Shown here: positions 8,257 through 40,489 of the stretch, one piece after another
Position numbering within the stretch: the first letter of the stretch is position 1
Layout of the letters: every line of letters starts with the position of its first letter
Origin: an uncultured Desulfuromonadales bacterium
Lineage (GTDB): Bacteria > Desulfobacterota > Desulfuromonadia > Geobacterales > CAIOGM01
Assembly (NCBI GenBank): GCA_903929485.1
Contig: CAIYUY010000097.1
Coordinates: 3,088-67,087, forward strand
Direction of reading: 5' to 3'
Length of the DNA: 64,000 nt
Notes under the pieces: model-generated
Told to the model about the DNA's origin: nothing
Database searches by the model: none
The model's input: only the letters and a program-made list of their open reading frames with translations
Translations under genes and position numbers: made by a program

Positions 8257-9306
8257 CTACATAATGAGCATCGCCGCCACCTGTTCCTCGCCGTAATCAT
8301 TGCCCACGACGATCTCCCCCTCCACACCGTCGCTGACCACCAGAATCCGGCACTGAATCCCCGCTTCCGCCCGGGTGTAGCGAAGGAGAATCCTGGCGGC
8401 GCTCCCCAACTGCTCGTCATCCGCTCCCCCCACCACGACCCCCATGGGGCTCCCCCCGTCCAGCCAGCGAAGATACGCCATTCCCGGCCGGGCGGCCTCC
8501 TCAAGAAGTCGGTTGTTCTCCTCGTTGCGCCCCACGATGAGCTTGACGTCGGGACTCAGCCGGAAGTGCCGCCCCAGCCGGAGAAGCCGGAAATCCAAGG
8601 GGTCCATGATCTGATTGTGGGTGAAGAGGTCGCGAATCTTCCCCTGAAAGGAGAGTTCAGTGAGGAGACATCCCCCAGCCGGGGAGGGATAATCTTCCAT
8701 TCCCAGCTCATGCGCCAGACGCATCTGCACTTTGCGGGAACGGCCGGTGATGCCGAAGAGTTTTTCCCGGTCCACCCATCCTTCCTGTTCCGGAATCGTG
8801 GGGGGAAGAAAGCGGGCCGACAGGGGGCGGAGGAGAAGTCCCATGAGGCCGCTCTCCCGCTCCACCACCCGGAGGGTATCCTTGCGCTGGCTCATGGGGC
8901 GCTGCCCCAGAACCTCGCCGCTGACCACGAAATCGGCGCCGTATTCCGGCATCAGCCCCCTGGCTACCCGAAACATCCAGGCATGACAATCCACGCAGGG
9001 GTTCACCGCCTTGCCGTAGCCGTGATTGGGGTTGCGCAGCATCTCCAGATAGTCGCCACCCAGATCATGAACGACCAGCGGGACCCCCAGGATGTCGGCG
9101 GAACGTCGGGCATTGTACTTCCCCGTGGCTTCATCCCCGGCGCCAAAGAAAGGAGAGGTGAAATGAAGGGCGGTAACGCCGATCCCCTGGTTCTGCATCA
9201 GCCGTACCGACAGTTGTGAATCGAGTCCCCCGGAAAAGAGGGCGATAGCTGCGTGTGCGTGTGCGATGGGTTCCTCCCGCGCCGGAGCGCTTTTTTTCTT
9301 CGGCAT
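8257..9306 (-). CDS. PP-loop ATPase, ThiI/tRNA-sulfurtransferase-like, without a THUMP domain
   Basis: SGGLDS PP-loop, NPCVDCH, and VVSGEVLGQRPMSQ, which resembles the ThiI C-terminal domain. Confidence 0.7.
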   Translation of the reverse strand: MPKKKSAPAREEPIAHAHAAIALFSGGLDSQLSVRLMQNQGIGVTALHFTSPFFGAGDEATGKYNARRSADILGVPLVVHDLGGDYLEMLRNPNHGYGKAVNPCVDCHAWMFRVARGLMPEYGADFVVSGEVLGQRPMSQRKDTLRVVERESGLMGLLLRPLSARFLPPTIPEQEGWVDREKLFGITGRSRKVQMRLAHELGMEDYPSPAGGCLLTELSFQGKIRDLFTHNQIMDPLDFRLLRLGRHFRLSPDVKLIVGRNEENNRLLEEAARPGMAYLRWLDGGSPMGVVVGGADDEQLGSAARILLRYTRAEAGIQCRILVVSDGVEGEIVVGNDYGEEQVAAMLIM

Positions 9307-9446
9307 GCTATCACAAAAGGTCGGCAGCTGTAAAGGAGGGGGGGGCGGGTTTCACTGGGGGTAAGTTTCATTTGACGGATCACACCACACGTGATTTACT
9401 GTTTCCCAGGGGGATTTGAAAAAACCCGGAGCAGGAGGAGAGAAGA

Positions 9447-11075
9447 ATGAGCCAATGGGTCACCGAGGGATCGCTGGGAGCCATACTCTACAACTCCCGG
9501 ATTGTTACCGATGAGGATATCCGAAAAGCAGTGACCGAACAGGAGCGGCTGAGCTGCCGGTTCGGAGAGGCGCTGGTTCATCTGGGTATCGTCACGGCGG
9601 AGGATATCAACTGGGCGCTGTCTCATCATCTGAACATTCCCTATATCCGGCTGAACCGGGAGGTGATGGGAGCCGATGCCGCGACCCTTCTCCCTGAGCG
9701 GATCGCCCGTCGCTACCATGCCGTTCCGGTGATCCGAACCGGCGATGAACTGCGGGTCGCCCTCGTGGACCCGCTGGACAAGGAGGCTCTCAAGGAGATC
9801 GCCGCCGTCAGCGCCGGCGCGCTGACGATCTGTATCGCCGATGAGAAAGAAGTCCGGGAGATGCTGGATTATCTGTATGGACCGGAACCGCAGGGAACCT
9901 TTGGTATCCTTTCCTCCGCGGCGTCTCCCCAGGAGACGGCGGCCATGGTTGCGGATACTTCGGGTGGGCGTTTTCTCAAATGGCTCCTCTTCCTCCTCAC
10001 CCGAAAGGGGTATGTCTCGGTGACCGTGGCCCCCTTGGCGGAAGGGGGAGTGGTTACCGGGTGTCAGGGGATCATTACTGAAGAGCTGGGACGACTCACG
10101 CTGGGGGGGTGCGCCCGGATCACAGCCCGACTCCGCGCCAGGGCGGTTCTGCGCAAGAGCTCGCCGGCCACGGAGAGCGGCAGTATGGAATATGTCAATG
10201 ACGGTGAGACGCTGACGATTCAGGTGGAGCTGCTCAAGGGAAGCGCCGGCAAGGTGATTACGCTCAAACAGGCCAAATCGCCCCGTGATGTCCCGTTCCC
10301 GCCGGAACTGTTCCCTTTGGTTCATGAAATGACGGAGCGCCCGGGGCTGGTGGTGGTGTCGCTCCCCATGAAAGAGACTCTCAACATGATGGAGCTGCTG
10401 GTGAACCGGCACTCTTTCGGCCAGGAGCGGCTTCTTCTCCTGGGTGAAGGAAACGAGACGATCCGAAAGCAGGCTCCCTGCATTCCCCTGGAGAATATCT
10501 CACCGGAAGAGCATGCAGCCATTATCACTGCGGTGCTGGAGCATGCCCCGGACCTCCTGCTGTTGGAAGGGATGGATGACAGCCGCTCCCTCCACGCCGC
10601 GGCCCAGGCGGCTCTGCGCGGGGTCCGGGTCGTGGCCGGAACCGGGGTGGGATGCGCCGAAACCTATGCCCTCCTCTTCTCGGCATGGCGGCAGGATCAT
10701 CTCATCCCTTCGGCCCTCCGGGGGATCGTCATGGGTGAGATCTTCTTCACCCTCTGCCACGCCTGCCGGAAACCGCTTCCCATGGAGCCCCGGGAGGGAG
10801 CCCGGCTGCGGCTCCCCCCGGCGGCAACGGGGTATCATCATGCAACGGGGTGCGCAGCCTGCGGGTTTACCGGCCGGGGGGAGGCGCGGCTCCTGGCGGA
10901 GGTGATCGTCTGCGACCGGCTGCTGGTCACTCTGCTTGAGAGTTGCGGTACCGGCGGTGAGTTTGCCCAGCGAGTGGCGCAACGAGAGGGGGAGACGGTA
11001 AGGGCTCAGGCAATCCGGCTTCTCCTGGGGGGGGAGATCTCCCCGGAAACCTATCTGAGAGTGGTCACGGCGTAG
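9447..11075 (+). CDS. GspE/PilB/MshE-family protein with an intact N-terminal T2SSE_N (MshEN-like) domain and a degenerate ATPase core
   Basis: The N-terminus has two 24-aa MshEN-like motifs (SLGAILYNSRIVTDEDIRKAVTEQ and RFGEALVHLGIVTAEDINWALSHH) 5 aa apart. The Walker A position reads SLPMKETL rather than GPTGSGKT, and the His box is lost. The C-terminal CxxC...CxxC (CHAC..CAACGFTGRGE) is retained. Confidence 0.75.
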   Translation: MSQWVTEGSLGAILYNSRIVTDEDIRKAVTEQERLSCRFGEALVHLGIVTAEDINWALSHHLNIPYIRLNREVMGADAATLLPERIARRYHAVPVIRTGDELRVALVDPLDKEALKEIAAVSAGALTICIADEKEVREMLDYLYGPEPQGTFGILSSAASPQETAAMVADTSGGRFLKWLLFLLTRKGYVSVTVAPLAEGGVVTGCQGIITEELGRLTLGGCARITARLRARAVLRKSSPATESGSMEYVNDGETLTIQVELLKGSAGKVITLKQAKSPRDVPFPPELFPLVHEMTERPGLVVVSLPMKETLNMMELLVNRHSFGQERLLLLGEGNETIRKQAPCIPLENISPEEHAAIITAVLEHAPDLLLLEGMDDSRSLHAAAQAALRGVRVVAGTGVGCAETYALLFSAWRQDHLIPSALRGIVMGEIFFTLCHACRKPLPMEPREGARLRLPPAATGYHHATGCAACGFTGRGEARLLAEVIVCDRLLVTLLESCGTGGEFAQRVAQREGETVRAQAIRLLLGGEISPETYLRVVTA

Positions 11076-11132
11076 CAGAAAAAGCATCAGCACCCGGTGA
11101 ATCGAAAAACCCGCGGTTTCAGGAGTTGTCAT

Positions 11133-12212
11133 ATGGCAAGCATCGACGCACTGTTCAAGATGATGAAAGAACAAGGGGCTTCCGACCTTCACCTCTCCAC
11201 CAGCGCTCCCCCCATCTTCCGTCTCCACGGTGACCTGGAGCCGCTGGATTTTAAGGCGCTCTCTCATGAAGAGCTCAAGGGAATCATCTATGAAATCCTG
11301 AGCGAAAAGCAGATCAAAGAGTTCGAGGAGCGCCACGACCTGGACTTCGCCTATTCGGTGCCCGGTCTTGCCAGATTCCGGGGAAACATCCTTTTGCAGC
11401 ATAAGGGGATCGCCGCGGTCTTTCGGATCATCCCCAGCAAGATTCTCTCCGTGGAAGAGCTGGGGCTGCCGGAAGGGGTGACGAAATTCACTCAGCTCAA
11501 GAAGGGTCTGGTTCTCGTAACCGGACCCACCGGGTCGGGCAAATCCACCACCCTGGCCGCCATGATCGATCACATCAACAACACCCGGAAGGATCATATC
11601 CTTACCCTGGAAGATCCTCTGGAGTTCATTCATGAGAACAAGCAATCCCTTTTTAATCAGCGGCAGATCGGCGAACATACGGACAGCTTCACCGCAGCCC
11701 TCCGCGCCGCCCTTCGCGAGGATCCTGATGTTATTCTCGTGGGGGAGATGCGTGACCTGGAGACCATCAGTTTGGCCATGACCGCCGCCGAAACCGGCCA
11801 TCTGGTCTTCGGCACCCTCCATACCAACTCCGCCGCCAAGACCATCGATCGAATTATTGACGCCTTCCCCCGGGACGGCCAGGCGCAGATACGAACCATG
11901 CTGGCCGAATCCCTGAAGGGGGTCATCTGTCAGCAGCTCCTCAAGACCACCGACGGCAAAGGGCGGGTGGCGGCCCTGGAAATCCTGGTGGGAACACCAG
12001 CCATCTCCAACCTGATCCGGGAAGGAAAAACCTTCCAGATTCCATCCATCATCCAGACCGCCCGCAGGGACGGGATGCAGCTCATGGACCAGCACCTACT
12101 GGATCTCCTCAAGACCAAACAGGTCACCGCCGAGGAAGCCCATCGCTGCGCCGGCGACAAAAAACAGTTTGAGCAGTTTCTCCCCCCGGCTGCTCGCCCG
12201 ACCGCGCCATGA
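11133..12212 (+). CDS. pilT: Type IV pilus retraction ATPase PilT
   Basis: GPTGSGKSTTLAAMID, DPDVILVGEMRD, TGHLVFGTLHTNSA and AALEILV; aggag RBS 8 nt before the ATG at 11133. Confidence 0.92.
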   Translation: MASIDALFKMMKEQGASDLHLSTSAPPIFRLHGDLEPLDFKALSHEELKGIIYEILSEKQIKEFEERHDLDFAYSVPGLARFRGNILLQHKGIAAVFRIIPSKILSVEELGLPEGVTKFTQLKKGLVLVTGPTGSGKSTTLAAMIDHINNTRKDHILTLEDPLEFIHENKQSLFNQRQIGEHTDSFTAALRAALREDPDVILVGEMRDLETISLAMTAAETGHLVFGTLHTNSAAKTIDRIIDAFPRDGQAQIRTMLAESLKGVICQQLLKTTDGKGRVAALEILVGTPAISNLIREGKTFQIPSIIQTARRDGMQLMDQHLLDLLKTKQVTAEEAHRCAGDKKQFEQFLPPAARPTAP

Positions 12213-12241: not shown

Positions 12242-14071
12242 ATGCATCACGGCGGACTTCACGAAGATGACATTGCCGGCAAGGCTTATGACCGGCGGCT
12301 CATGGGCCGGTTCGCAGGCTACCTGCGCCCGCACCTGAGAATCATCCTCTTCGTCCTCCTTCTCCTCCCTCCCATCGCCGGAGCCAAGCTCGTCCAGCCG
12401 TATCTCGTCAAGATCGCCATCGATAACCATATCGTCACCGGGAACCTCACCGGGCTCCCCGGTCTGGCGTTCCTCTTTCTTACCCTCATCCTGAGCGAAT
12501 CCCTCCTCACCTACGGAGAGACCTATCTCCTCCAGCAGGTCGGCCAGCAACTGATGTTCCGTATCCGGGAGGAGCTGTTCAACCATCTCCAGAGACTCTC
12601 TCTCTCTTTCTTCGACCGGACCCCCACGGGGGGGATCGTGACCCGTCTTACCAGCGACGTGGAGGTTCTGGGGGAGATGTTCGCCGCCGGGATCGTCACG
12701 GTCGTGGGGGATCTCCTCCTCCTGGCCGGTATTGTCGGCATCATGCTTTGGATGAACCCAACACTCTCCCTGGTGACCTTCTCGGTTCTCCCCCTCCTCT
12801 TTTTCATTGTCTTCCGTTTCCGCCGACTCATGCGGGATGCTTTTCGACAGGTCCGCTCGCGGCTGGCGCTTCTTAACTCGTTTTTGGCCGAGAGCATCGG
12901 CGGCATGGCCATCATCCAGCTCTTCAACCGCCAGGCTGGTGAACAAAAACGGTTCACCCAGCTCAATGCCGCGTATCGGGACGCCAACCGGCCGGTTATC
13001 ATCTGGGACGCCTCCCTTTACGCCCTGGTGGAGACCCTCTCCTCGGTGGCCGTGGGGCTCATCATCTGGTACGGAGGGGGCGAGATCGTCCGGGGGCATC
13101 TCTCCTTCGGCGCCTTGGTGGCTTTCATCCAGTACAGCGAAAAGTTCTTCGGCCCCATCCGCGATCTCTCTTCCAAGTATTCCACCATGCAGGGGGCCAT
13201 GGCCGCCCTGGAACGGATCTTCACCCTGCTGGATTCCAAGGAGTATCCGGCGGATGGTTCGGCTTCGCTCACCAACCGATCACCGGCTTCGCTCACCAAC
13301 CGGTCCCTGAGCGTGGTCCCTGAGCGAAGCCGAAAGGGAGTCCAAGGGGCTCTGGTGGAGTTCAAGGATGTCTGGTTTGCCTATCGGGACGAAGAGTATG
13401 TGCTGAAGGGGGTGTCGTTGACACTGCGTCGCGGGGAGAAGCTGGCCATTGTGGGGGAGACCGGTGGTGGCAAGAGCACCATAACCCGGCTCCTCTCCCG
13501 GCTCTACGACATCCAACGGGGGAGCATCACCATCGACGGCGTGGATGTCCGGGATCTGCCGCTGGGGCTCCTTCGCTCCCGCATCGGTGTCGTCCTTCAG
13601 GAACCGTTTCTCTTCACCGGAACCATCGCCTTCAACATCACCCTTGGCGACCGCCGTGCCGCAGCCAGGATGGAGGAGGCCACCCGGATCGTGGGAGCTG
13701 ACCGGTTCATCAATCGCCTCCCCAAGGGTTTTGATGAAGAGGTCCGGGAGCGGGGAAACAACTTCTCCGCCGGGGAGCGGCAGCTCATCTCCTTTGCCCG
13801 CGCCGTGGCCTTTAATCCGGAGATCCTCGTCCTGGATGAGGCAACCTCCAGCGTGGATTCGGCCAGCGAGCGACTCATTCAGGAAGGACTCCGGGGACTT
13901 CTGGCGGGACGAACCTCCATCGTGGTCGCTCATCGTCTCTCCACGGTTCGCGACGCCGATCGAATCATCGTCATCCGCCGAGGTGAGAAACGGGAAGAGG
14001 GGAGTCATGAGGAGCTCATGGCGGCGCAAGGGCTTTATTACCGGCTCCACCAGTTGCAGTTCAAGGGGTAA
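12242..14071 (+). CDS. ABC exporter, fused TMD-NBD (MsbA/ABCB-like)
   Basis: Six-TM exporter-type N-terminal half. NBD motifs: GETGGGKST, LSAGERQLISFARA, ILVLDEATSSVD. Confidence 0.9.
   Translation: MHHGGLHEDDIAGKAYDRRLMGRFAGYLRPHLRIILFVLLLLPPIAGAKLVQPYLVKIAIDNHIVTGNLTGLPGLAFLFLTLILSESLLTYGETYLLQQVGQQLMFRIREELFNHLQRLSLSFFDRTPTGGIVTRLTSDVEVLGEMFAAGIVTVVGDLLLLAGIVGIMLWMNPTLSLVTFSVLPLLFFIVFRFRRLMRDAFRQVRSRLALLNSFLAESIGGMAIIQLFNRQAGEQKRFTQLNAAYRDANRPVIIWDASLYALVETLSSVAVGLIIWYGGGEIVRGHLSFGALVAFIQYSEKFFGPIRDLSSKYSTMQGAMAALERIFTLLDSKEYPADGSASLTNRSPASLTNRSLSVVPERSRKGVQGALVEFKDVWFAYRDEEYVLKGVSLTLRRGEKLAIVGETGGGKSTITRLLSRLYDIQRGSITIDGVDVRDLPLGLLRSRIGVVLQEPFLFTGTIAFNITLGDRRAAARMEEATRIVGADRFINRLPKGFDEEVRERGNNFSAGERQLISFARAVAFNPEILVLDEATSSVDSASERLIQEGLRGLLAGRTSIVVAHRLSTVRDADRIIVIRRGEKREEGSHEELMAAQGLYYRLHQLQFKG
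13259..13345 (+). repeat. In-frame insertion in the TMD-NBD linker: a 24-bp tandem duplication plus a copy of a dispersed repeat
   Basis: gcttcgctcaccaaccg occurs at 13262 and 13286. gtggtccctgagcgaagccgaaaggg (13313-13338) matches intergenic copies at 48153, 52921 and, inverted, 53068. Confidence 0.7.
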
Positions 14072-16740: not shown

Positions 16741-17889
16741 ATGTCAACCCTTCACTCCATACTCATCATCGATAATGACGTTACCACCCGATCGGCAATG
16801 GATCATCTCATCGCGCGATGCCGCCGTCCCATAGAGTTAAGCGCCGCCGCCGTTACCCGTCGCGAAGGACTGAAACAGCTGGAGTCGGACACGCCGCCTC
16901 AGGTGGTTATCCTGGAGGTACAGTCAATAGCCCAAGGGGTCAGGGATGTTTCCGCCATTCTCACCGCCAATTCCCAGACGATGATCATGGCTACGTCAGG
17001 GGAAAAGCGTCCCGACTGGATACGTACCCTCATTCGGGCCGGTGCAAGCGAATATCTCACCACGCCGATCTCCGCCGATGGACTGGAAGAGACCTTGGAG
17101 CGGGCGGCTCTGATGCTCGAACAAAAAAATGGGGCGGAGGATGCAGGGGGGAAGGTGATTACCGTCTACAACCCGGCGGGTGGGATGGGAACTACAACCA
17201 TCGCCGTGAACCTGGCCGCGGCCCTGGCCATGGAGGGGAGGATGACGGCGCTGGTCGACCTCAACCCGTTCAGCAGCGATGTCTCTGCATTTCTGAACCT
17301 CAATCCGGCGGAAACTCTGAACGCTCTCCGGGAGACGGGACGAAGATTGAGCGCCGGTCGTCTCCTGGACCTCATGACCCGTCACGGTTCCGGAGTGCAG
17401 GTACTCTGCGGGCCGGAAGAACCAGGTGTCATCGTGGAGTTCGCCCCGGATCAGATCCTGAGCCTTATCACCCTCATGCGAGGTCAGTTCGGCGTAACGG
17501 TCATCGACGCCGGCGGTGAGCTGTCGGAGCGTAACCTGGAGATCTTCGACGGATCAGACGTCATTTTGTACCCGCTACTCCTCACCCTGCCGGCCCTCAA
17601 CAACGCCAAGCGATACATGAAAGCTCTGAATCAACAAGGCTTCGATCCTGGCCGGATCAAGGTGGTGGTCAACAGGTATTTATCCCTGGATAGTATTAAT
17701 GTCTCCCATGCGGAGGAGTTCCTGGATAAAGAGATCTTCCATTTAATTCCCAATTCCTATCTGGAACTTAAAAAATCCATCTATAAAGGCGCACCCTTGG
17801 TGACCGACTACCCCCGCTCGCCCGTTACCAAGGCGCTGATCGAGTTGGCTGAGCGGCTCTTGAAGGAGATGTCCGTAGGATCACACTAA
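16741..17889 (+). CDS. TadZ/CpaE-like protein: pseudo-receiver domain plus a deviant MinD/ParA ATPase domain
   Basis: REC-like N-terminus whose acceptor position reads VVILEV (Glu rather than Asp). The P-loop reads NPAGGMGTTTIAVNLA, so the KGGxGK[ST] lysines are absent. Confidence 0.7.
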   Translation: MSTLHSILIIDNDVTTRSAMDHLIARCRRPIELSAAAVTRREGLKQLESDTPPQVVILEVQSIAQGVRDVSAILTANSQTMIMATSGEKRPDWIRTLIRAGASEYLTTPISADGLEETLERAALMLEQKNGAEDAGGKVITVYNPAGGMGTTTIAVNLAAALAMEGRMTALVDLNPFSSDVSAFLNLNPAETLNALRETGRRLSAGRLLDLMTRHGSGVQVLCGPEEPGVIVEFAPDQILSLITLMRGQFGVTVIDAGGELSERNLEIFDGSDVILYPLLLTLPALNNAKRYMKALNQQGFDPGRIKVVVNRYLSLDSINVSHAEEFLDKEIFHLIPNSYLELKKSIYKGAPLVTDYPRSPVTKALIELAERLLKEMSVGSH

Positions 17890-21791: not shown

Positions 21792-22709
21792 TCAGCGGTT
21801 ATTCCGCAGCAGTTCGACGCTGATTCCGGCGACCTCCGCCGCCTCCTCCGGACTCATTCCCTTCTCAATCAGGCAGCGGGCAACCTCCACCTTCCCCTCC
21901 TGTTTGCCGGCCTGCATGCCGGCCTCCATCCCCGCCTGCATCCCTTCTTCCCTACCCTCCAAACGGCCAAGCCCATAGTTGGATTCGATAAGGCTGGCTT
22001 GATAGCTCAGCTCATACTGATAGCGTTCATATGCCAAGCGCTCTTTCTCCGGCAGGCTTAACAGGGAAAAGGCTTTTTTCGCCTGTTGTATCCCCTTGGC
22101 TTTGAATTCAACCTTGATCTCTTCGTTTTTCAGAAAATAGATCCACTCGTCCAGGGACGTTGTCGCCACGTCGTTAAAGTTATTGATCCGGAGCAGATAA
22201 TACTCGGGGAAGAGGTGGTGAATCTGCTCCTTGCCGTACAGTTTTTGCTGCCTGCTGCTGAGTTCCAACTGGTCGTGATCGTGAATACCGGTAAAACTAG
22301 TGACGCCGCGATAGATATAGTCGCTACCATGCCCCAGATCGAAATAGAGAATGTTGACGGAGATGACTTTCACCAAGTGGGAAAACGGTTCTCCTTCCCG
22401 TTGATGCTCGGTTATGGCGCGGGATGTCCCGTACAGCATCCGTTGCAGGTAGTCATGCTCCCGTTCGTACTGGAGTTCGATGAGGATGATCTCGCCGGCG
22501 CTGTTTTTCACCTTCAGATCGACCCGGTTGAACTTGTCGCCAACACTCTCCTTGTTGCTTTCGCTCTCCAGAATTTCCAGGATCACGATATCTTCACAAA
22601 GCAGTTCACTCAAGAATCCTTCCAGGATCTCGAAGTTGGCCTTGCTTCGCAGTAGTCGTTTCATGGCCCAATCAAAGGTGATCAGCTTGCGTTTGAGTTC
22701 CGTTTTCAT
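21792..22709 (-). CDS. Rpn/YhgA-like recombination-promoting nuclease (PDDEXK_2, transposase_31 family)
   Basis: The core reads DKFNRVDLKV...GEIILIELQYE (PD-(D/E)XK). The C-terminus has a repeated EGxxxGxxxG region and a helix-turn-helix-like tail. Confidence 0.75.
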   Translation of the reverse strand: MKTELKRKLITFDWAMKRLLRSKANFEILEGFLSELLCEDIVILEILESESNKESVGDKFNRVDLKVKNSAGEIILIELQYEREHDYLQRMLYGTSRAITEHQREGEPFSHLVKVISVNILYFDLGHGSDYIYRGVTSFTGIHDHDQLELSSRQQKLYGKEQIHHLFPEYYLLRINNFNDVATTSLDEWIYFLKNEEIKVEFKAKGIQQAKKAFSLLSLPEKERLAYERYQYELSYQASLIESNYGLGRLEGREEGMQAGMEAGMQAGKQEGKVEVARCLIEKGMSPEEAAEVAGISVELLRNNR

Positions 22710-37503: not shown

Positions 37504-38141
37504 GCGAGAAGATCAAACACTCAATTCTTATCATCGAGGACGACCCTTCCTACCGGAGCATGATGGAGCTGATCCTCCGGATGGAAGGATTTGCGGTCCG
37601 CGCCGCAGACGATGGAGAATCCGGCCTGGAGTTGCTTCGTGAACAGCGGTCCGACCTAATCCTGTGCGACATCATGATGCCTGATATGGATGGGTACTCG
37701 GTATTGGAAACGTTGAGGGGTGAGAGTCGCCTGGCGGATATCCCCTTTATATTTGTCACCGCCATGGGGGAGCGCTTGGATGTCCGTCGGGGGATGTCCG
37801 CGGGGGCTGATGACTATCTCTCCAAGCCGTTTGTGGCCGATGAACTTCTTGCCGCCGTGACCGGTCGGCTCCGCCGTCACGGGATGATTGCCGTCAGTCA
37901 GGCAACATCGGTTTTCAGGAAGGAGCGTGACATCCTGAACTCGAAGACCACCAGGCGGGAGCGGGAGGTTCTGTTGCTGGTGGGACAGGGAATCACCTCC
38001 CGGGAGATCGCCCGGCGCCTGGGGGTCGGCGAAAAAACCATAGAGGTGCATCGGGCGAATCTGATGCATAAGCTTGACGCCCCCAATGCCGCCTCCCTGG
38101 CCCGCTGGGCGGTCATAGCGGAGCAGATGGAACGTGATTAA
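37500..38141 (+). CDS. Response regulator, REC plus LuxR/FixJ-type HTH
   Basis: ILIIEDD...LILCDIMMPDMDG...SKPF, then TRREREVL.LV..G.TS.EIA..L....KT.EVHR.N.M.KL. The TTG start overlaps the kinase stop. Confidence 0.88.
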   Translation: MSEKIKHSILIIEDDPSYRSMMELILRMEGFAVRAADDGESGLELLREQRSDLILCDIMMPDMDGYSVLETLRGESRLADIPFIFVTAMGERLDVRRGMSAGADDYLSKPFVADELLAAVTGRLRRHGMIAVSQATSVFRKERDILNSKTTRREREVLLLVGQGITSREIARRLGVGEKTIEVHRANLMHKLDAPNAASLARWAVIAEQMERD

Positions 38142-38514
38142 TACCATGCGACCGGCTTCTCTTCAAGAAAATGAAAATAGAATAGGCTGGTTAACTTATT
38201 CTTACTGTTTTTTCAGTATTTGAATGTAGCTTAACTGAGCTCTATTGTAATATTAAATAGTATCTTCCCATCCTGATTTCCTGCTTTATTTCATTCATCA
38301 TCCAATCATGTAAGGTTTAATTTTTATTTCTAGTGGTTTCCCCCAATATACGGCAGTTAAAAAATATACTATAGTAATTATAGATGATAGTTCGTAGCCA
38401 ATGCACGAGTTGTGATTATTAGCGATACTATTTTTCAGGTTGTTATTCATGGTTTTTCATGTCTGATTTGTCAGACAGTAATTTATTTCATGCAAATAAA
38501 AAAAGGATATTGAA

Positions 38515-38898
38515 ATGCCTCTGGTCCAGTGGAACGAATCGTATTCCTTGAAAAATGCCGTGCTTGATACTCAACATAAGAAATTGTTCGGGATATTAAA
38601 CAGGTTGTATGACGATGCCATGGACAATGTTAACGAATCGGCTTATGAAACCGCCGTTGGCAGGCTTTTGTTTTATACTAATTATCATTTTGACACTGAA
38701 GAACAGATAATGGGTAAATGCAATCACCCGTTTTTGTATGATCATGCCCAAGAACATCAAAGCTTCACGGAAAAAATAGGTGAACTTAAAAATAATATCG
38801 GACATGATAGTAAGGAAAAAACAAAAGTGTTAATAGAATTTCTGGTGAACTGGATAGTTCATCATGTTGTTGTTGAAGACCATAAAATCGCTTATTGA
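38515..38898 (+). CDS. Bacteriohaemerythrin-like protein in an AT-rich islet
   Basis: W...YS......D.QHK.LF, H....E, H.Q.H and HH....D iron-ligand pattern, 127 aa. The gene is visibly AT-rich. Confidence 0.85.
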   Translation: MPLVQWNESYSLKNAVLDTQHKKLFGILNRLYDDAMDNVNESAYETAVGRLLFYTNYHFDTEEQIMGKCNHPFLYDHAQEHQSFTEKIGELKNNIGHDSKEKTKVLIEFLVNWIVHHVVVEDHKIAY

Positions 38899-38931
38899 TA
38901 TGAAAACTGAATGACGCCCGTATCCCGCAGT

Positions 38932-39024
38932 TATTTGGGCGACACCGGCAGCGGGATTCCGGAGGAAATCAGGATGCGGATTTTCGATCCATGGAAACGT
39001 TCGCCGCCGGTGATCCGCCGGTGA
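38932..39024 (+). pseudogene. About 30-codon fragment of a histidine-kinase ATP-binding domain (G1 box)
   Basis: Reads YLGDTGSGIPEEIRMRIFDPWKRSPPVIRR*. No upstream HisKA or start is present. Confidence 0.4.
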
Positions 39025-39052
39025 AGTCACCCTTTGAGATTAAGGAGCCGGC

Positions 39053-40489
39053 ATGAAAATTTTACTAACAGGTGCAACAGGTTACATCGGTAAACGACTT
39101 CTGCCGCGGTTAATCGCCCAGGGACACGAACTGTTCTGCTGCGTCAGGGACCGCAGCCGGTTTACCGCCCCGCCGGGGATGCAGGGAGCCGTACAGGTCC
39201 TGGAAGTGGATTTTCTCCACCGCCCGTCCCTGGACGCCATTCCCCAGGGGATCGAGTGCGCCTATTATCTGGTCCATTCCATGTCGTCTTCCGGGGAATT
39301 TGACGAGATGGAGTCAACCTCCGCGATCAACTTTCGCGACCGGATGGATGCCCTGAACGTGAAGCAGGTTGTTTATCTCAGCGGCATCGTTAATAAGGAG
39401 ACTCTGTCCCGGCATCTGGCCTCAAGGAAGCACGTTGAAGATCTCCTGGCCTCCGGTCGCTTTTCCCTGACAACCCTGCGGGCCGGAATTATCGTCGGAT
39501 CGGGGAGCGCCTCCTTTGAAATCATCAGGGATCTGGTGGAAAAGCTCCCTTTCATGATCGCCCCCGCTTGGCTTTCCACCCGTTGCCAGCCCATCGGGAT
39601 CAGCGACGTTATTGAACTCCTCCTCCGTTGTCTCAAGAATGAGGCGACCTACGACCGGAGTTTTGACATCGGCGGGCCGGATATCATGACCTACAAGGAG
39701 ATGCTCCTTGGCTATGCGGATGCTCGCGGGTTGAAAAGAGCGATAGTGACGGTTCCGGTCATGACGCCGCGACTCTCTTCCTACTGGCTCTATTTTGTGA
39801 CGTCGACCTCCTTTACCCTGGCTCGGAATCTGGTGAACAGCATGAAGGTCGAGGTCGTCTGCCGGAATAATGAAATCATGCAGCTTCTTAAGTTGCAACC
39901 GCGAAATTTTAACGCCACCATCCTGGCGGCCTTTGAGGCTCTGGAGCAGAACAGCCTCCTTTCCAGCTGGAAGGACAGCATGGTCAGCGGCCGGTTGAAC
40001 ATTCACCTCGCCGATTATGTTCAGGTTCCCGAATTCGGCTGTCTGTGCGACCAACGATCGTTGACGGTTGCCGATCCCGAAGCCGTTCTGGAACGGATAT
40101 GGCGCATAGGAGGCGACAGGGGGTGGTACTACCTGAACTGGCTCTGGCGTCTCCGGGGGGTTTTCGACAAGGCTTTCGGCGGCGTCGGCCTCAGGCGGGG
40201 GAGAACCAGCGCCGTCTCCCTGCATACCGGGGAGTGCCTCGATTTCTGGCGCGTGCTTCTGGCGGACAGGGGAGGGCGAAGGCTGTTGCTGTTTGCCGAG
40301 ATGAAATTGCCAGGCGAGGCCTGGCTGGAGTTCAGGATCGATGACAAAAATATCCTGCATCAGACCGCAACCTTTCGCCCCCGGGGGCTCTGGGGGAGAA
40401 TCTACTGGTATACCCTGGTGCCCCTGCACCAGATCATTTTTGGCGGGATGATTCGGCGTATCGCCGGTAACCCTACGCAAGAGGTCTGA
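39053..40489 (+). CDS. NAD(P)-binding SDR/NmrA-like protein with a DUF2867-like C-terminal domain
   Basis: MKILLTGATGYIGKRL Rossmann start, 478 aa. Confidence 0.75.
   Translation: MKILLTGATGYIGKRLLPRLIAQGHELFCCVRDRSRFTAPPGMQGAVQVLEVDFLHRPSLDAIPQGIECAYYLVHSMSSSGEFDEMESTSAINFRDRMDALNVKQVVYLSGIVNKETLSRHLASRKHVEDLLASGRFSLTTLRAGIIVGSGSASFEIIRDLVEKLPFMIAPAWLSTRCQPIGISDVIELLLRCLKNEATYDRSFDIGGPDIMTYKEMLLGYADARGLKRAIVTVPVMTPRLSSYWLYFVTSTSFTLARNLVNSMKVEVVCRNNEIMQLLKLQPRNFNATILAAFEALEQNSLLSSWKDSMVSGRLNIHLADYVQVPEFGCLCDQRSLTVADPEAVLERIWRIGGDRGWYYLNWLWRLRGVFDKAFGGVGLRRGRTSAVSLHTGECLDFWRVLLADRGGRRLLLFAEMKLPGEAWLEFRIDDKNILHQTATFRPRGLWGRIYWYTLVPLHQIIFGGMIRRIAGNPTQEV

What the first reader, a model, noticed from the sequence alone, without database searches (positions are those of the whole stretch)
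9447..12212. Degenerate GspE/MshE-like pseudo-ATPase with an intact MshEN-type c-di-GMP motif pair, immediately upstream of pilT
The 542-aa protein keeps the T2SSE_N domain. That domain has two 24-residue motifs matching the published MshEN c-di-GMP-binding pattern (RLGxx[LVI][LVI]xxG[LVI][LVI]xxxx[LVI]xxx[LVI]xxQ), separated by exactly 5 residues.

It also keeps the C-terminal tetracysteine cluster. However, it has lost Walker A (SLPMKETL) and the His box. It sits 58 nt upstream of a canonical PilT.

My inference is a non-catalytic c-di-GMP sensor that partners with, or regulates, the retraction ATPase.
Basis: partly seen in the sequence, partly recalled or inferred. Interest (0 to 1): 0.55.

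Follow-up and report, generated by a model that had tools for sequence, protein, structure and literature searches.

The report
Dead PilB-like c-di-GMP sensor beside PilT
This gene encodes a copy of the pilus-extension motor PilB that has lost every ATP-burning motif but kept a strongly conserved c-di-GMP-binding head; it sits directly upstream of a working retraction motor gene (pilT) in all 80 Geobacter relatives checked and in 7 of 8 distant bacteria, so it is probably a signal-sensing regulator rather than the "PilB/GspE ATPase" it is annotated as.

Summary
ORF 9447-11075 (542 aa) has the full PilB/MshE layout: an MshEN head, an N2 domain, and a C-terminal domain with a tetracysteine cluster. 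Its Walker A, Asp box, Walker B glutamate, His box and Arg fingers are all gone. A canonical pilT starts 57 nt downstream.

"Intact" motif pair is an overstatement. Only 17 of the 22 specified motif positions match (R9S, L15Y, G18R, L39F, Q61H). However, the residues shown experimentally to matter most (G11, G40, the hydrophobic clusters, Q32, R38) are kept.

It is not a pseudogene. At least 168 Geobacterales genomes carry it. None of 81 orthologs has a P-loop. The c-di-GMP helix bundle is about 62% identical across the family, against 23-29% for the rest of the protein. pilT follows in 80 of 80 loci, with a median gap of 21 nt.

It belongs to the family of G. sulfurreducens GSU0435 ("mshE", upstream of pilT3). 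The papers I found treat GSU0435 as an ATPase.

A wider cross-phylum group of Walker-less PilB paralogs shows the same pilT pairing in 7 of 8 sampled loci.

Best reading: a catalytically dead, c-di-GMP-sensing PilB paralog that regulates or partners its adjacent PilT. Ligand binding and the PilT interaction are inferred, not shown.

The parts
9447..11075 (+). PilB/MshE-like pseudo-ATPase, 542 aa (GSU0435 'mshE' family)
   Evidence: ORF and ribosome-binding site. Pfam MshEN plus a partial T2SSE match. The family profile aligns full-length to Geobacter PilB 5zfr/5tsg at E about 1e-50. AlphaFold2 model has pLDDT 81.8, and Foldseek top hits are GspE and PilB with target-normalised TM 0.47-0.68 (0.6-0.68 for the PilB entries). 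33% identical over the full length to P0192, which carries the published GSU0435 primers.
9471..9629 (+). MshEN_N four-helix bundle (residues 9-61): c-di-GMP motif I (9-32), 5-residue spacer (33-37), motif II (38-61)
   Evidence: NF053729 matches 10-60. Predicted helices at 10-16, 22-35, 39-45 and 51-62. In 81 orthologs: G11 80/81; Q32, R38, G40, I54 and L58 81/81; G47 79/81; Q61 77/81; position 9 is S/T/A; position 18 is Q/R/N. Median 62% identity to the window across the family, against 23-29% for N2 and CTD.
9630..9890 (+). MshEN_C alpha/beta subdomain (about residues 62-148)
   Evidence: Pfam PF05157 matches 62-148 at E 3.5e-17. 19 of 86 positions are at least 95% conserved.
9963..10295 (+). 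N2 domain (about residues 173-283), Arg-finger motif lost
   Evidence: Aligns to the N2 domain of PilF and PilB. 'RLPQDGR' of PilF aligns to 'PATESGS'. Predicted as a beta-rich fold.
10359..10382 (+). Degenerate Walker A position (residues 305-312, SLPMKETL)
   Evidence: Aligned to GPTGSGKS/T of PilF and PilB. No GxxxxGK[ST] in any of 81 orthologs.
10539..10652 (+). Degenerate Walker B and His box region (residues 365-402, HAPDLLLLEGMDD...RGVRVVAGTGVG)
   Evidence: Aligned to DPDIIMVGEIRD...TGHLVIATLHTN of PilF and PilB. The catalytic Glu is displaced and both His residues are absent.
10755..10862 (+). Tetracysteine (Zn-type) cluster C437-x2-C440 ... C469-x2-C472
   Evidence: Invariant in alignment A1 and at least 95% conserved in 81 orthologs. 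Aligns to the CxxC...CxxC of PilB.
11076..11132 (+). 57-nt intergenic spacer with the pilT ribosome-binding site; no terminator-like site
   Evidence: Sequence read directly. The terminator scan finds nothing here. The median spacer in 80 related loci is 21 nt.
11133..12212 (+). Canonical PilT retraction ATPase (PilT3 type), 359 aa
   Evidence: TIGR01420 at 490 bits, cutoff 319. Walker A GPTGSGKS present. 74-94% identical to the pilT that follows the pseudo-ATPase in the related loci with a full-length match. The pilT3 primer of Speers 2016 lies in the equivalent gene of L091.

Best explanation
The 542-aa protein is a PilB/MshE paralog that has become a pseudoenzyme. It keeps the three-domain PilB body, including the zinc-type cysteine cluster, but it cannot bind or hydrolyse ATP in the canonical way.

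What evolution preserves most strongly is the N-terminal MshEN four-helix bundle that binds one c-di-GMP molecule in MshE and PilF. I therefore read it as a c-di-GMP receptor. Its PilB-like body serves as an output or docking module.

Because it is encoded in an operon-like pair with a fully functional PilT (the PilT3 type of Geobacter), its most likely job is to couple c-di-GMP level to that PilT. It could do this by binding the PilT ring directly, or by occupying the PilB docking site on the pilus platform and so controlling PilT's access.

Shown here: domain architecture, loss of catalytic motifs, purifying selection focused on the ligand site, and near-universal linkage to pilT.

Inferred: that it binds c-di-GMP, and that it acts on PilT.
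For: - Architecture and fold.
- Catalytic motifs lost, in the window and in 0 of 81 orthologs. None of 16 members approaches the PilB or GspE equivalog cutoffs (66 against 676 bits), while all 16 match the c-di-GMP_motif model, best E 8.4e-16.
- Not decaying: at least 168 genomic relatives and 582 protein clusters.
- Selection focused on the ligand site: the c-di-GMP bundle has 26 of 55 positions at least 95% conserved, against 7 of 111 in N2.
- Key ligand-contact positions are kept. Literature shows G11 and G40 are essential, whereas Arg9 changes affinity no more than 5-fold (PMC5013675). Literature also shows the first motif residue can be K, L or P with nM to sub-uM binding (PMC11731258).
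- pilT linkage: 80 of 80 Geobacterales loci with a median 21-nt gap. Also 7 of 8 distant Walker-less relatives, including one from Ca. Lernaellota. One of these loci also carries a REC-GGDEF gene.
- G. sulfurreducens GSU0435 and PilT3 belong to the same pair. Both are reported as highly expressed on Fe(III) oxide (PMC5065972).
Against: - Motif I lacks the stacking Arg (S/T/A at position 9 in 79 of 81) and the turn Gly (position 18). The window's subclade also has H instead of Q at position 61. Affinity could therefore be low or absent.
- The window protein scores just under the NCBIfam domain cutoff (37.8 against 38).
- No physical evidence exists for a PilT contact.
- pilB-pilT(-pilC) is a common ancestral gene order in Geobacter and Myxococcus, so the adjacency could partly be inherited.
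- Speers 2016 judged mshE and pilT3 unlikely to be co-transcribed in G. sulfurreducens.
- Deleting pilT3 there gave no hyperpiliation phenotype, so the biological output of the pair is unknown.
Confidence: 0.55

Rival explanations
1. The protein is a pseudo-ATPase that acts on the extension side rather than on PilT. It would work as a catalytically dead competitor or plug for the PilB docking site on PilM/PilC, or as a poison subunit in PilB or GspE rings. Under this reading the pilT neighbour is a relic of an ancestral pilB-pilT duplication.
For: The full PilB body is retained, including N2, CTD and the Zn cluster, which are the parts that contact the platform and neighbouring subunits in PilB. 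pilB-pilT4-pilC is the canonical Geobacter order (PMC8557921, PMC5065972). In one distant locus the order is pilB-pilC-pseudoB-pilT.
Against: The pilT linkage persists while the pseudo-ATPase itself diverges to about 30% identity and across phyla. That is hard to explain without functional coupling. N2 and CTD are poorly conserved (23-29% identity), which fits poorly with co-assembly into conserved PilB rings.
Confidence: 0.2
2. The MshEN head no longer binds c-di-GMP. It would be conserved because it is a protein-protein interface, as GspE N1 is with GspL, or the Xanthomonas PilB N-terminus is with PilZ. The protein would then be a ligand-independent adaptor for PilT.
For: Motif I deviates at the Arg and at the turn Gly in the whole Geobacterales family. 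The window scores marginally below the NF053729 cutoff. MshEN-like domains that have lost binding exist, namely XpsE and PilF GSPII-A (PMC5013675, PMC11731258).
Against: The known non-binders carry changes at G11, G40, R38, L54, L58 or Q61. Here G11, G40, R38, I54 and L58 are 80-81 of 81 conserved and Q61 is 77 of 81. Binders without Arg at the first motif position are documented: PilF GSPII-B at 6 nM and GSPII-C, with Pro, at about 0.5 uM (PMC11731258).
Confidence: 0.2
3. It is a real ATPase with a non-canonical or mis-aligned nucleotide site, or alternatively a decaying pseudogene.
For: Some members of the Geobacterales family carry a GxxxGK[ST]-like string at the Asp-box position, about residue 333, in 18 of 81 (24 of 81 have GK[ST] anywhere). 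Some distant relatives keep a partial P-loop, for example P0071 with GPSGSGRT and P0098 with Walker A but no Walker B or His box.
Against: No GxxxxGK[ST] occurs in any of 81 orthologs. All five catalytic motifs are lost together in consistent alignments. The GK[ST] string is absent from the window's clade. The ORF is intact in at least 168 genomes, the model is confidently folded, and conservation is domain-specific, all of which rules out decay.
Confidence: 0.04

Closest known systems
GSU0435 ('mshE') / PilT3 (GSU0436) pair of Geobacter sulfurreducens (Speers et al. 2016, PMC5065972; Ueki et al. 2021, PMC8557921)
   Same: Same protein family: 33% identity over the full length. Same gene order: a divergent ThiI-like gene upstream and pilT immediately downstream. 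The contig encoding P0192 carries the published GSU0435 and pilT3 primers.
   Different: Those papers call it a PilB-like or MSHA-type polymerisation ATPase, and a candidate back-up for PilB. In the papers I could search, neither the loss of the ATPase motifs nor the c-di-GMP site is mentioned. The window protein belongs to a separate subclade (55-63% identity among its nearest relatives) that has H instead of Q at position 61.
Vibrio cholerae MshE and its MshEN domain (PDB 5HTL; Wang et al. 2016, PMC5013675)
   Same: Same N-terminal domain, in the same register: two 24-residue motifs with a 5-residue spacer. G11, Q32, R38, G40, G47 and the hydrophobic clusters are kept. Same overall N1-N2-CTD layout with the Zn cluster.
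   Different: MshE is an active extension ATPase with Walker A and B, Asp box and His box, all of which are absent here. Motif I here has S9 and R18 instead of R9 and G18. MshE is encoded in an msh pilus operon, whereas this gene is paired only with pilT.
PilB of Geobacter metallireducens and G. sulfurreducens (PDB 5TSG/5TSH/5ZFR) and PilF of Thermus thermophilus (6F8L)
   Same: Best sequence and fold matches. The family profile aligns end to end at E 1e-50 to 2e-71, and Foldseek target-normalised TM scores for these entries range from 0.53 to 0.68.
   Different: About 17-19% identity in the structural alignments. The catalytic motifs and Arg fingers are missing. It scores 66 bits on the PilB equivalog model against a 676-bit cutoff.
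FimX/PilZ-PilB and other c-di-GMP adaptors of type IV pilus motors (PMC8389850, PMC5595344, PMC11656802)
   Same: The concept is the same: a non-motor c-di-GMP receptor that controls a pilus motor ATPase.
   Different: Those adaptors use degenerate EAL/GGDEF or PilZ folds and act on the extension motor PilB. Here the receptor is itself a degenerate motor paralog, and it is linked to the retraction motor gene.

Membership tests
PilB/GspE/MshE secretion ATPases (functional T2SSE motors) | Walker A P-loop GxxGxGK[ST] | tested here: not met
   SLPMKETL occupies the position. 0 of 81 orthologs match GxxxxGK[ST].
PilB/GspE/MshE secretion ATPases (functional T2SSE motors) | Asp box, Walker B with catalytic Glu (GEIRD), His box (TGHxxxxTxHT) and Arg fingers | tested here: not met
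   EDPVE aligns to GEGNE. GEIRD aligns to EGMDD. TGHLVIATLHTN aligns to RGVRVVAGTGVG. RLPQDGR aligns to PATESGS.
PilB/GspE/MshE secretion ATPases (functional T2SSE motors) | N2 plus CTD fold with tetracysteine Zn motif | tested here: met
   AlphaFold2 model and Foldseek hits to 5tsg, 5zfr and 4pht. C437, C440, C469 and C472 are invariant.
PilB/GspE/MshE secretion ATPases (functional T2SSE motors) | Scores above the curated equivalog cutoffs (TIGR02538 PilB, TIGR02533 GspE) | tested here: not met
   66.1 against 675.65 bits and 53.6 against 630.25 bits. The same holds for all 16 members of A1.
MshEN c-di-GMP receptor domain | Two 24-residue motifs separated by 5 residues, forming a four-helix bundle | tested here: met
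   Motifs at 9-32 and 38-61 with spacer 33-37. Predicted helices at 10-16, 22-35, 39-45 and 51-62. NF053729 matches 10-60.
MshEN c-di-GMP receptor domain | Gly at motif position 3 (G11, G40), whose backbone amides read the guanine; mutation abolishes binding | tested here: met
   G11 and G40 are present in the window. G11 is 80/81 and G40 is 81/81 in the family, and both are 40/40 in the wider Walker-less group. Requirement taken from PMC5013675.
MshEN c-di-GMP receptor domain | Hydrophobic clusters L10/L54/L58 and L39/L25/L29, and Gln at positions 32 and 61 | tested here: inconclusive
   The window has L10, I54, L58, F39, I25, V29 and Q32, which are conservative substitutions, but H61. The family has Q61 in 77 of 81. 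The effect of F39 and H61 on affinity is unknown.
MshEN c-di-GMP receptor domain | Arg (or K/L in the extended consensus) at the first position of each motif | tested here: not met
   Motif II has R38 (81/81). Motif I has S9, and the family has S/T/A, never R. PMC11731258 extends the consensus to R/K/L and reports a Pro-containing binder. Ser has not been tested.
MshEN c-di-GMP receptor domain | Measured c-di-GMP binding | not testable with these tools
   Requires ITC, DRaCALA or NMR on the purified domain.
GSU0435/PilT3-type pair of Geobacterales | Walker-less PilB-like gene immediately upstream of a PilT-family gene on the same strand | tested here: met
   Window gap of 57 nt. 80 of 80 related loci. 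The G. sulfurreducens-type contig is identified by the published primers.

The most novel reading that the evidence does not exclude
Walker-less, MshEN-headed PilB paralogs form a widespread cross-phylum class of second-messenger receptors dedicated to the retraction motor. In response to c-di-GMP, each would physically gate its adjacent PilT, through a stacked or mixed ring or through controlled access to the platform. That would give bacteria a direct c-di-GMP switch on pilus retraction.

A more speculative variant applies to Geobacterales. There the asymmetric site (motif I without Arg, motif II canonical) might be tuned to the asymmetric dinucleotide 3'3'-cGAMP, which from my own knowledge governs metal-oxide respiration in Geobacter.
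Probability: 0.3. Interest if true: 0.75.

Novelty: new variant of a known kind. Interest (0 to 1): 0.6.

Why it matters
First, it corrects an annotation that affects an active debate. GSU0435-type proteins are listed as PilB/GspE ATPases, and they have been proposed as possible substitutes for PilB in G. sulfurreducens pilB-deletion strains (PMC8557921). A protein with no P-loop, catalytic Glu, His box or Arg fingers cannot power pilus assembly.

Second, a recent review notes that Geobacter appears to lack recognisable regulators of pilus extension (PMC11656802). This conserved pair is a concrete candidate regulator.

Third, all well-studied c-di-GMP inputs to type IV pili act on the extension motor. 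A receptor genetically tied to PilT in many lineages would point to second-messenger control of retraction. It would also add a clear example of a motor ATPase recycled into a pseudoenzyme sensor.

The hypothesis can be tested directly in a genetically tractable organism.

Tried and rejected
- Mis-registered P-loop: rejected by phmmer and profile alignments to PilF, PilB and GspE, and by a regex scan of 81 orthologs.
- Pseudogene: rejected by intact ORFs in at least 168 genomes and by domain-specific conservation.
- Riboswitch or other RNA element upstream, for example GEMM: no Rfam hit in the window at gathering thresholds, nor at E up to 1 in 9200-11200.
- Terminator between the two genes: none found.
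- The word-indexed protein search with the window protein or with A1 found only about 15 relatives. The family became visible only with the genome scan, the exhaustive HMM search, and a query from a different subclade.
- The metagenome scan with the distant-clade alignment gave only 4 loci because the back-translated pattern was too degenerate. I did not analyse them, and used exact-protein look-ups instead.
- Control look-ups for canonical PilB neighbours: one contig was too short to judge, and one showed pilin-pilB-pilC with no pilT. The baseline frequency of pilT directly after a canonical pilB is therefore not quantified here.
- A fused-chain or multimer structure prediction with PilT was considered and not run. 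The tool returns no inter-chain contacts or PAE, and it accepts no paired alignment from loci.
- The most basal Walker-less relative sampled (P0130) is not followed by pilT, so the pairing does not hold for every Walker-less MshEN protein.
- Literature searches for prior descriptions of PilB-like pseudo-ATPases found none. The library lacks most subscription-journal papers, so absence is not proof.
Full report
**1. What is in the window**

ORF 9447-11075 on the + strand encodes 542 aa. It is preceded by an AGGAGG ribosome-binding site. A second ORF follows. Its likely start is the ATG at 11133, which has an AGGAG site 7-8 nt upstream. An in-frame GTG at 11097 is the mechanical ORF start. The ORF ends at 12212.

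The spacer between the two genes is 57 nt and contains no terminator-like site. The second protein is a textbook PilT. It scores 490 bits on TIGR01420 against a cutoff of 319, and it has Walker A GPTGSGKS and the AIxNLIRE motif.

The surrounding genes are housekeeping genes: a transglycosylase, a divergent ThiI-like PP-loop protein, an ABC exporter, a nitroreductase and SelB. No other pilus genes lie nearby. No Rfam family, and in particular no c-di-GMP or cGAMP riboswitch, is detected.

**2. Checking the observation**

The domain calls hold:
- Pfam MshEN matches residues 62-148 at E 3.5e-17.
- Only the C-terminal third of T2SSE matches, at 357-532.
- The NCBIfam 53-residue 'c-di-GMP_motif' model matches residues 10-60 at 37.8 bits, a hair below its 38.0 cutoff.
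- The crystal-structure sequence of V. cholerae MshEN matches residues 9-139 at E 3.4e-14.

The two motifs are at 9-32 and 38-61, with a 5-residue spacer. This is exactly the numbering of VcMshE.

Against the published pattern, motif I matches 8 of 11 specified positions. The mismatches are S9 for R, Y15 for L/V/I and R18 for G. Motif II matches 9 of 11, with F39 for L and H61 for Q. 'Intact' is therefore too strong.

In both the single-sequence and profile alignments to T. thermophilus PilF and Geobacter PilB:
- Walker A GPTGSGKS/T faces SLPMKETL.
- The Asp box EDPVE faces GEGNE.
- Walker B GEIRD faces EGMDD.
- The His box TGHLVxxTLHTN faces RGVRVVAGTGVG.
- The Arg-finger stretch RLPQDGR faces PATESGS.

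The tetracysteine cluster (C437, C440, C469, C472) is present and invariant.

**3. The fold is retained**

An AlphaFold2 model built on 16 family sequences has a mean pLDDT of 81.8. It shows four N-terminal helices (10-16, 22-35, 39-45, 51-62) followed by alpha/beta domains.

The best Foldseek PDB matches are GspE (4pht) and PilB or PilF (5tsh, 5tsg, 5zfr, 5it5). E-values are about 1e-22 to 1e-24, and target-normalised TM scores for the PilB and PilF entries range from 0.53 to 0.68. The family profile aligns end to end with Geobacter PilB at E about 1e-50.

The protein is therefore a PilB-shaped body without a PilB active site.

**4. It is a conserved family, not a decaying copy**

A scan of one genome per species found 168 relatives. 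The best 80 are all Geobacterales or Desulfuromonadales. They include cultured Geobacter sp. OR-1 and AOG1, G. argillaceus, G. hydrogenophilus, Pelotalea chapellei and Oryzomonas japonica. A protein search seeded from the G. hydrogenophilus ortholog returned 582 clusters. Their annotations vary: PilB, GspE/PulE family, T2SS protein E or TadA.

In an 81-sequence alignment, no member has a P-loop.

Conservation is strikingly uneven. The c-di-GMP helix bundle (residues 8-62) has a median 62% identity to the window protein, and 26 of its 55 positions are at least 95% conserved. N2 and the C-terminal domain sit at 23-29% identity, with 7 of 111 and about 21 of 259 such positions. Selection is therefore concentrated on the ligand-binding head.

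**5. Is the head still a c-di-GMP site?**

Family-wide counts for the key positions are as follows:

| Position | Count or residues |
|---|---|
| L/I10 | 79 of 81 |
| G11 | 80 of 81 |
| Q32, R38, G40, I54, L58 | 81 of 81 each |
| G47 | 79 of 81 |
| Q61 | 77 of 81 (H in the window's subclade) |
| Position 9 | S, T or A; never R |
| Position 18 | mostly Q, R or N |

The MshEN structure paper shows that the guanines are read by backbone amides at G11 and G40, and that substituting these residues abolishes binding. Each hydrophobic cluster residue contributes more than 10-fold to affinity. Changing Arg9 costs no more than about 5-fold. The non-binder XpsE differs at G11, I19, L29, R38, G40, L54, L58 and Q61 (PMC5013675).

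Apart from position 61, none of those non-binder changes occurs here.

The PilF study shows that the first motif residue may be Lys or Leu (KD 6 nM) or even Pro (about 0.5 uM). It calls GSPII-B the first c-di-GMP domain that does not rely on arginine (PMC11731258).

Binding is therefore plausible, and I put it at about 0.65. A small polar residue at position 9 combined with a non-Gly turn has not been tested anywhere I could find.

**6. Linkage to pilT**

In all 80 related loci, a pilT homolog follows on the same strand. Where the contig holds the full gene, it is 74-94% identical to the window's PilT, while the pseudo-ATPase itself is only 29-62% identical. The median gap is 21 nt, and 59 of 80 gaps are 60 nt or less. 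78 of 80 pilT copies show GPTGSGKS in their best match.

**7. The family is wider than Geobacterales**

An exhaustive profile search of 1.84 billion representative proteins showed that 86 of the 149 best-scoring representatives lack Walker A. In a rough neighbour-joining tree, these fall outside the clade of canonical, motif-bearing PilBs. The Geobacterales family is one branch among them.

These distant proteins keep G11 and G40 in 40 of 40. They also share a signature Trp at position 56 in 35 of 40, against 3 of 35 in canonical PilBs.

I looked up the genomic context of eight of them. Seven are followed immediately by a 347-366-aa T2SSE-family gene of PilT size. The five that I scanned are bona fide PilT, at 448-474 bits on TIGR01420.
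- One is from Candidatus Lernaellota.
- One locus reads pilB-pilC-pseudoB-pilT.
- Two have a PatA_N protein after pilT.
- One is flanked by GAF histidine kinases and a REC-GGDEF gene.
- The most basal one sampled is not paired with pilT.

A canonical PilB control showed pilin-pilB-pilC.

**8. Link to the literature**

Speers et al. 2016 describe pilT3 (GSU0436) of G. sulfurreducens as lying downstream of 'mshE' (GSU0435). They call it a pilB-like gene homologous to the MSHA polymerisation ATPase. They note the arrangement in G. metallireducens and G. uraniireducens. They report that PilT3 restores retraction in a P. aeruginosa pilT mutant, and that MshE and PilT3 are abundant in Fe(III)-oxide cultures (PMC5065972). 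Ueki et al. 2021 list GSU0435 as a PilB/PulE/GspE family ATPase that might compensate for loss of PilB (PMC8557921).

Family member P0192 is 33% identical to the window protein over its full length. It lies on a contig with the same ThiI-like upstream neighbour. That contig carries three of the published primers:
- the GSU0435 reverse primer, an exact match;
- the GSU0435 forward primer, with one mismatch;
- the pilT3 forward primer, an exact match inside the downstream gene.

The window pair therefore belongs to the GSU0435/PilT3 family.

In the papers I could search, I found no statement that this protein lacks ATPase motifs or carries a conserved c-di-GMP site. I also found no description of PilB-like pseudo-ATPases. 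A 2024 review remarks that Geobacter seems to lack recognisable extension regulators (PMC11656802).

**9. Mechanism**

Shown: a PilB-fold protein with no catalytic motifs; purifying selection focused on the MshEN ligand site; an operon-like pairing with an intact PilT, maintained across deep divergence.

Inferred: it binds c-di-GMP (about 0.65), and it acts through or on the adjacent PilT (about 0.55-0.6).

I commit to the following reading. It is a c-di-GMP-sensing pseudo-ATPase that regulates its cognate PilT, either by direct ring-ring or mixed-ring contact, or by occupying the PilB socket and so gating motor exchange. I put overall confidence in the joint statement at 0.55.

The main rivals are these:
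- It acts on the extension side, and pilT adjacency is historical.
- The head has become a ligand-independent protein interface.
- It is a real but unusual ATPase, or a pseudogene. Both versions are essentially excluded.

**10. Novelty and verdict**

The gene and its pilT neighbour are known in Geobacter, but they are described there as an ATPase. The points I could not find in the literature I searched are:
- its pseudoenzyme nature;
- the focused conservation of the c-di-GMP site;
- the cross-phylum family with near-universal pilT pairing.

I file it as a new variant of a known kind, namely a degenerate PilB/MshE-type MshEN receptor. It is not a member of the functional PilB/GspE ATPases, whose defining motifs it fails. 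Interest score: 0.6.

Noticed in passing
window 16741-17889 (+): A 382-aa protein combines a response-regulator receiver domain with a ParA/MinD-like (CbiA/AAA_31) ATPase domain, an architecture reminiscent of TadZ/CpaE-type pilus localisation factors. It lies about 4.5 kb downstream of pilT, just after selB.
   Followed up: no
L085/L086 7744-8952; L087 6777-8030: In two distant loci, the gene after the pseudo-ATPase-pilT pair encodes a PatA_N (PATAN) protein, one of them with a receiver domain. PatA_N also appears fused to long PilB-like proteins P0020 and P0021.
   Followed up: no
L094 2541-9596: A distant pseudo-ATPase-pilT pair is embedded between GAF histidine kinases, a stand-alone receiver and a REC-GGDEF diguanylate-cyclase-type gene. 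This context is consistent with c-di-GMP signalling.
   Followed up: no
proteins P0071 and P0098: These look like intermediate stages of ATPase decay. P0071 has a P-loop with Lys replaced by Arg (GPSGSGRT). P0098 keeps Walker A (GPKNSGKT) but has lost Walker B and the His box. This suggests stepwise or repeated loss.
   Followed up: partly
residue 56 of the 542-aa protein (window 9612-9614): Trp56 in motif II (EDIxWALS) is invariant in the 21 Geobacterales-family sequences of the wide alignment and at least 95% conserved in the 81-sequence alignment. It is present in 35 of 40 distant Walker-less relatives but in only 3 of 35 canonical PilBs. It is a lineage signature of unknown role, on the face of helix 4 next to the Gua2 cluster.
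   Followed up: partly
window 12242-14071 (+): An MsbA-like ABC exporter starts 29 nt after the pilT stop codon. It is conserved after pilT only in the two closest relatives (L001, L002). It is therefore not part of the conserved pair.
   Followed up: partly
window 38001-40000: GC content drops to 0.479 against about 0.55-0.62 elsewhere in the window. This may be a foreign insert. A PD-(D/E)XK transposase-family ORF lies at 21792-22709 (-).
   Followed up: no
L093 2357-4538: One distant pseudo-ATPase is followed by two consecutive T2SSE genes of 347 and 369 aa, which resembles a PilT-PilU tandem.
   Followed up: no
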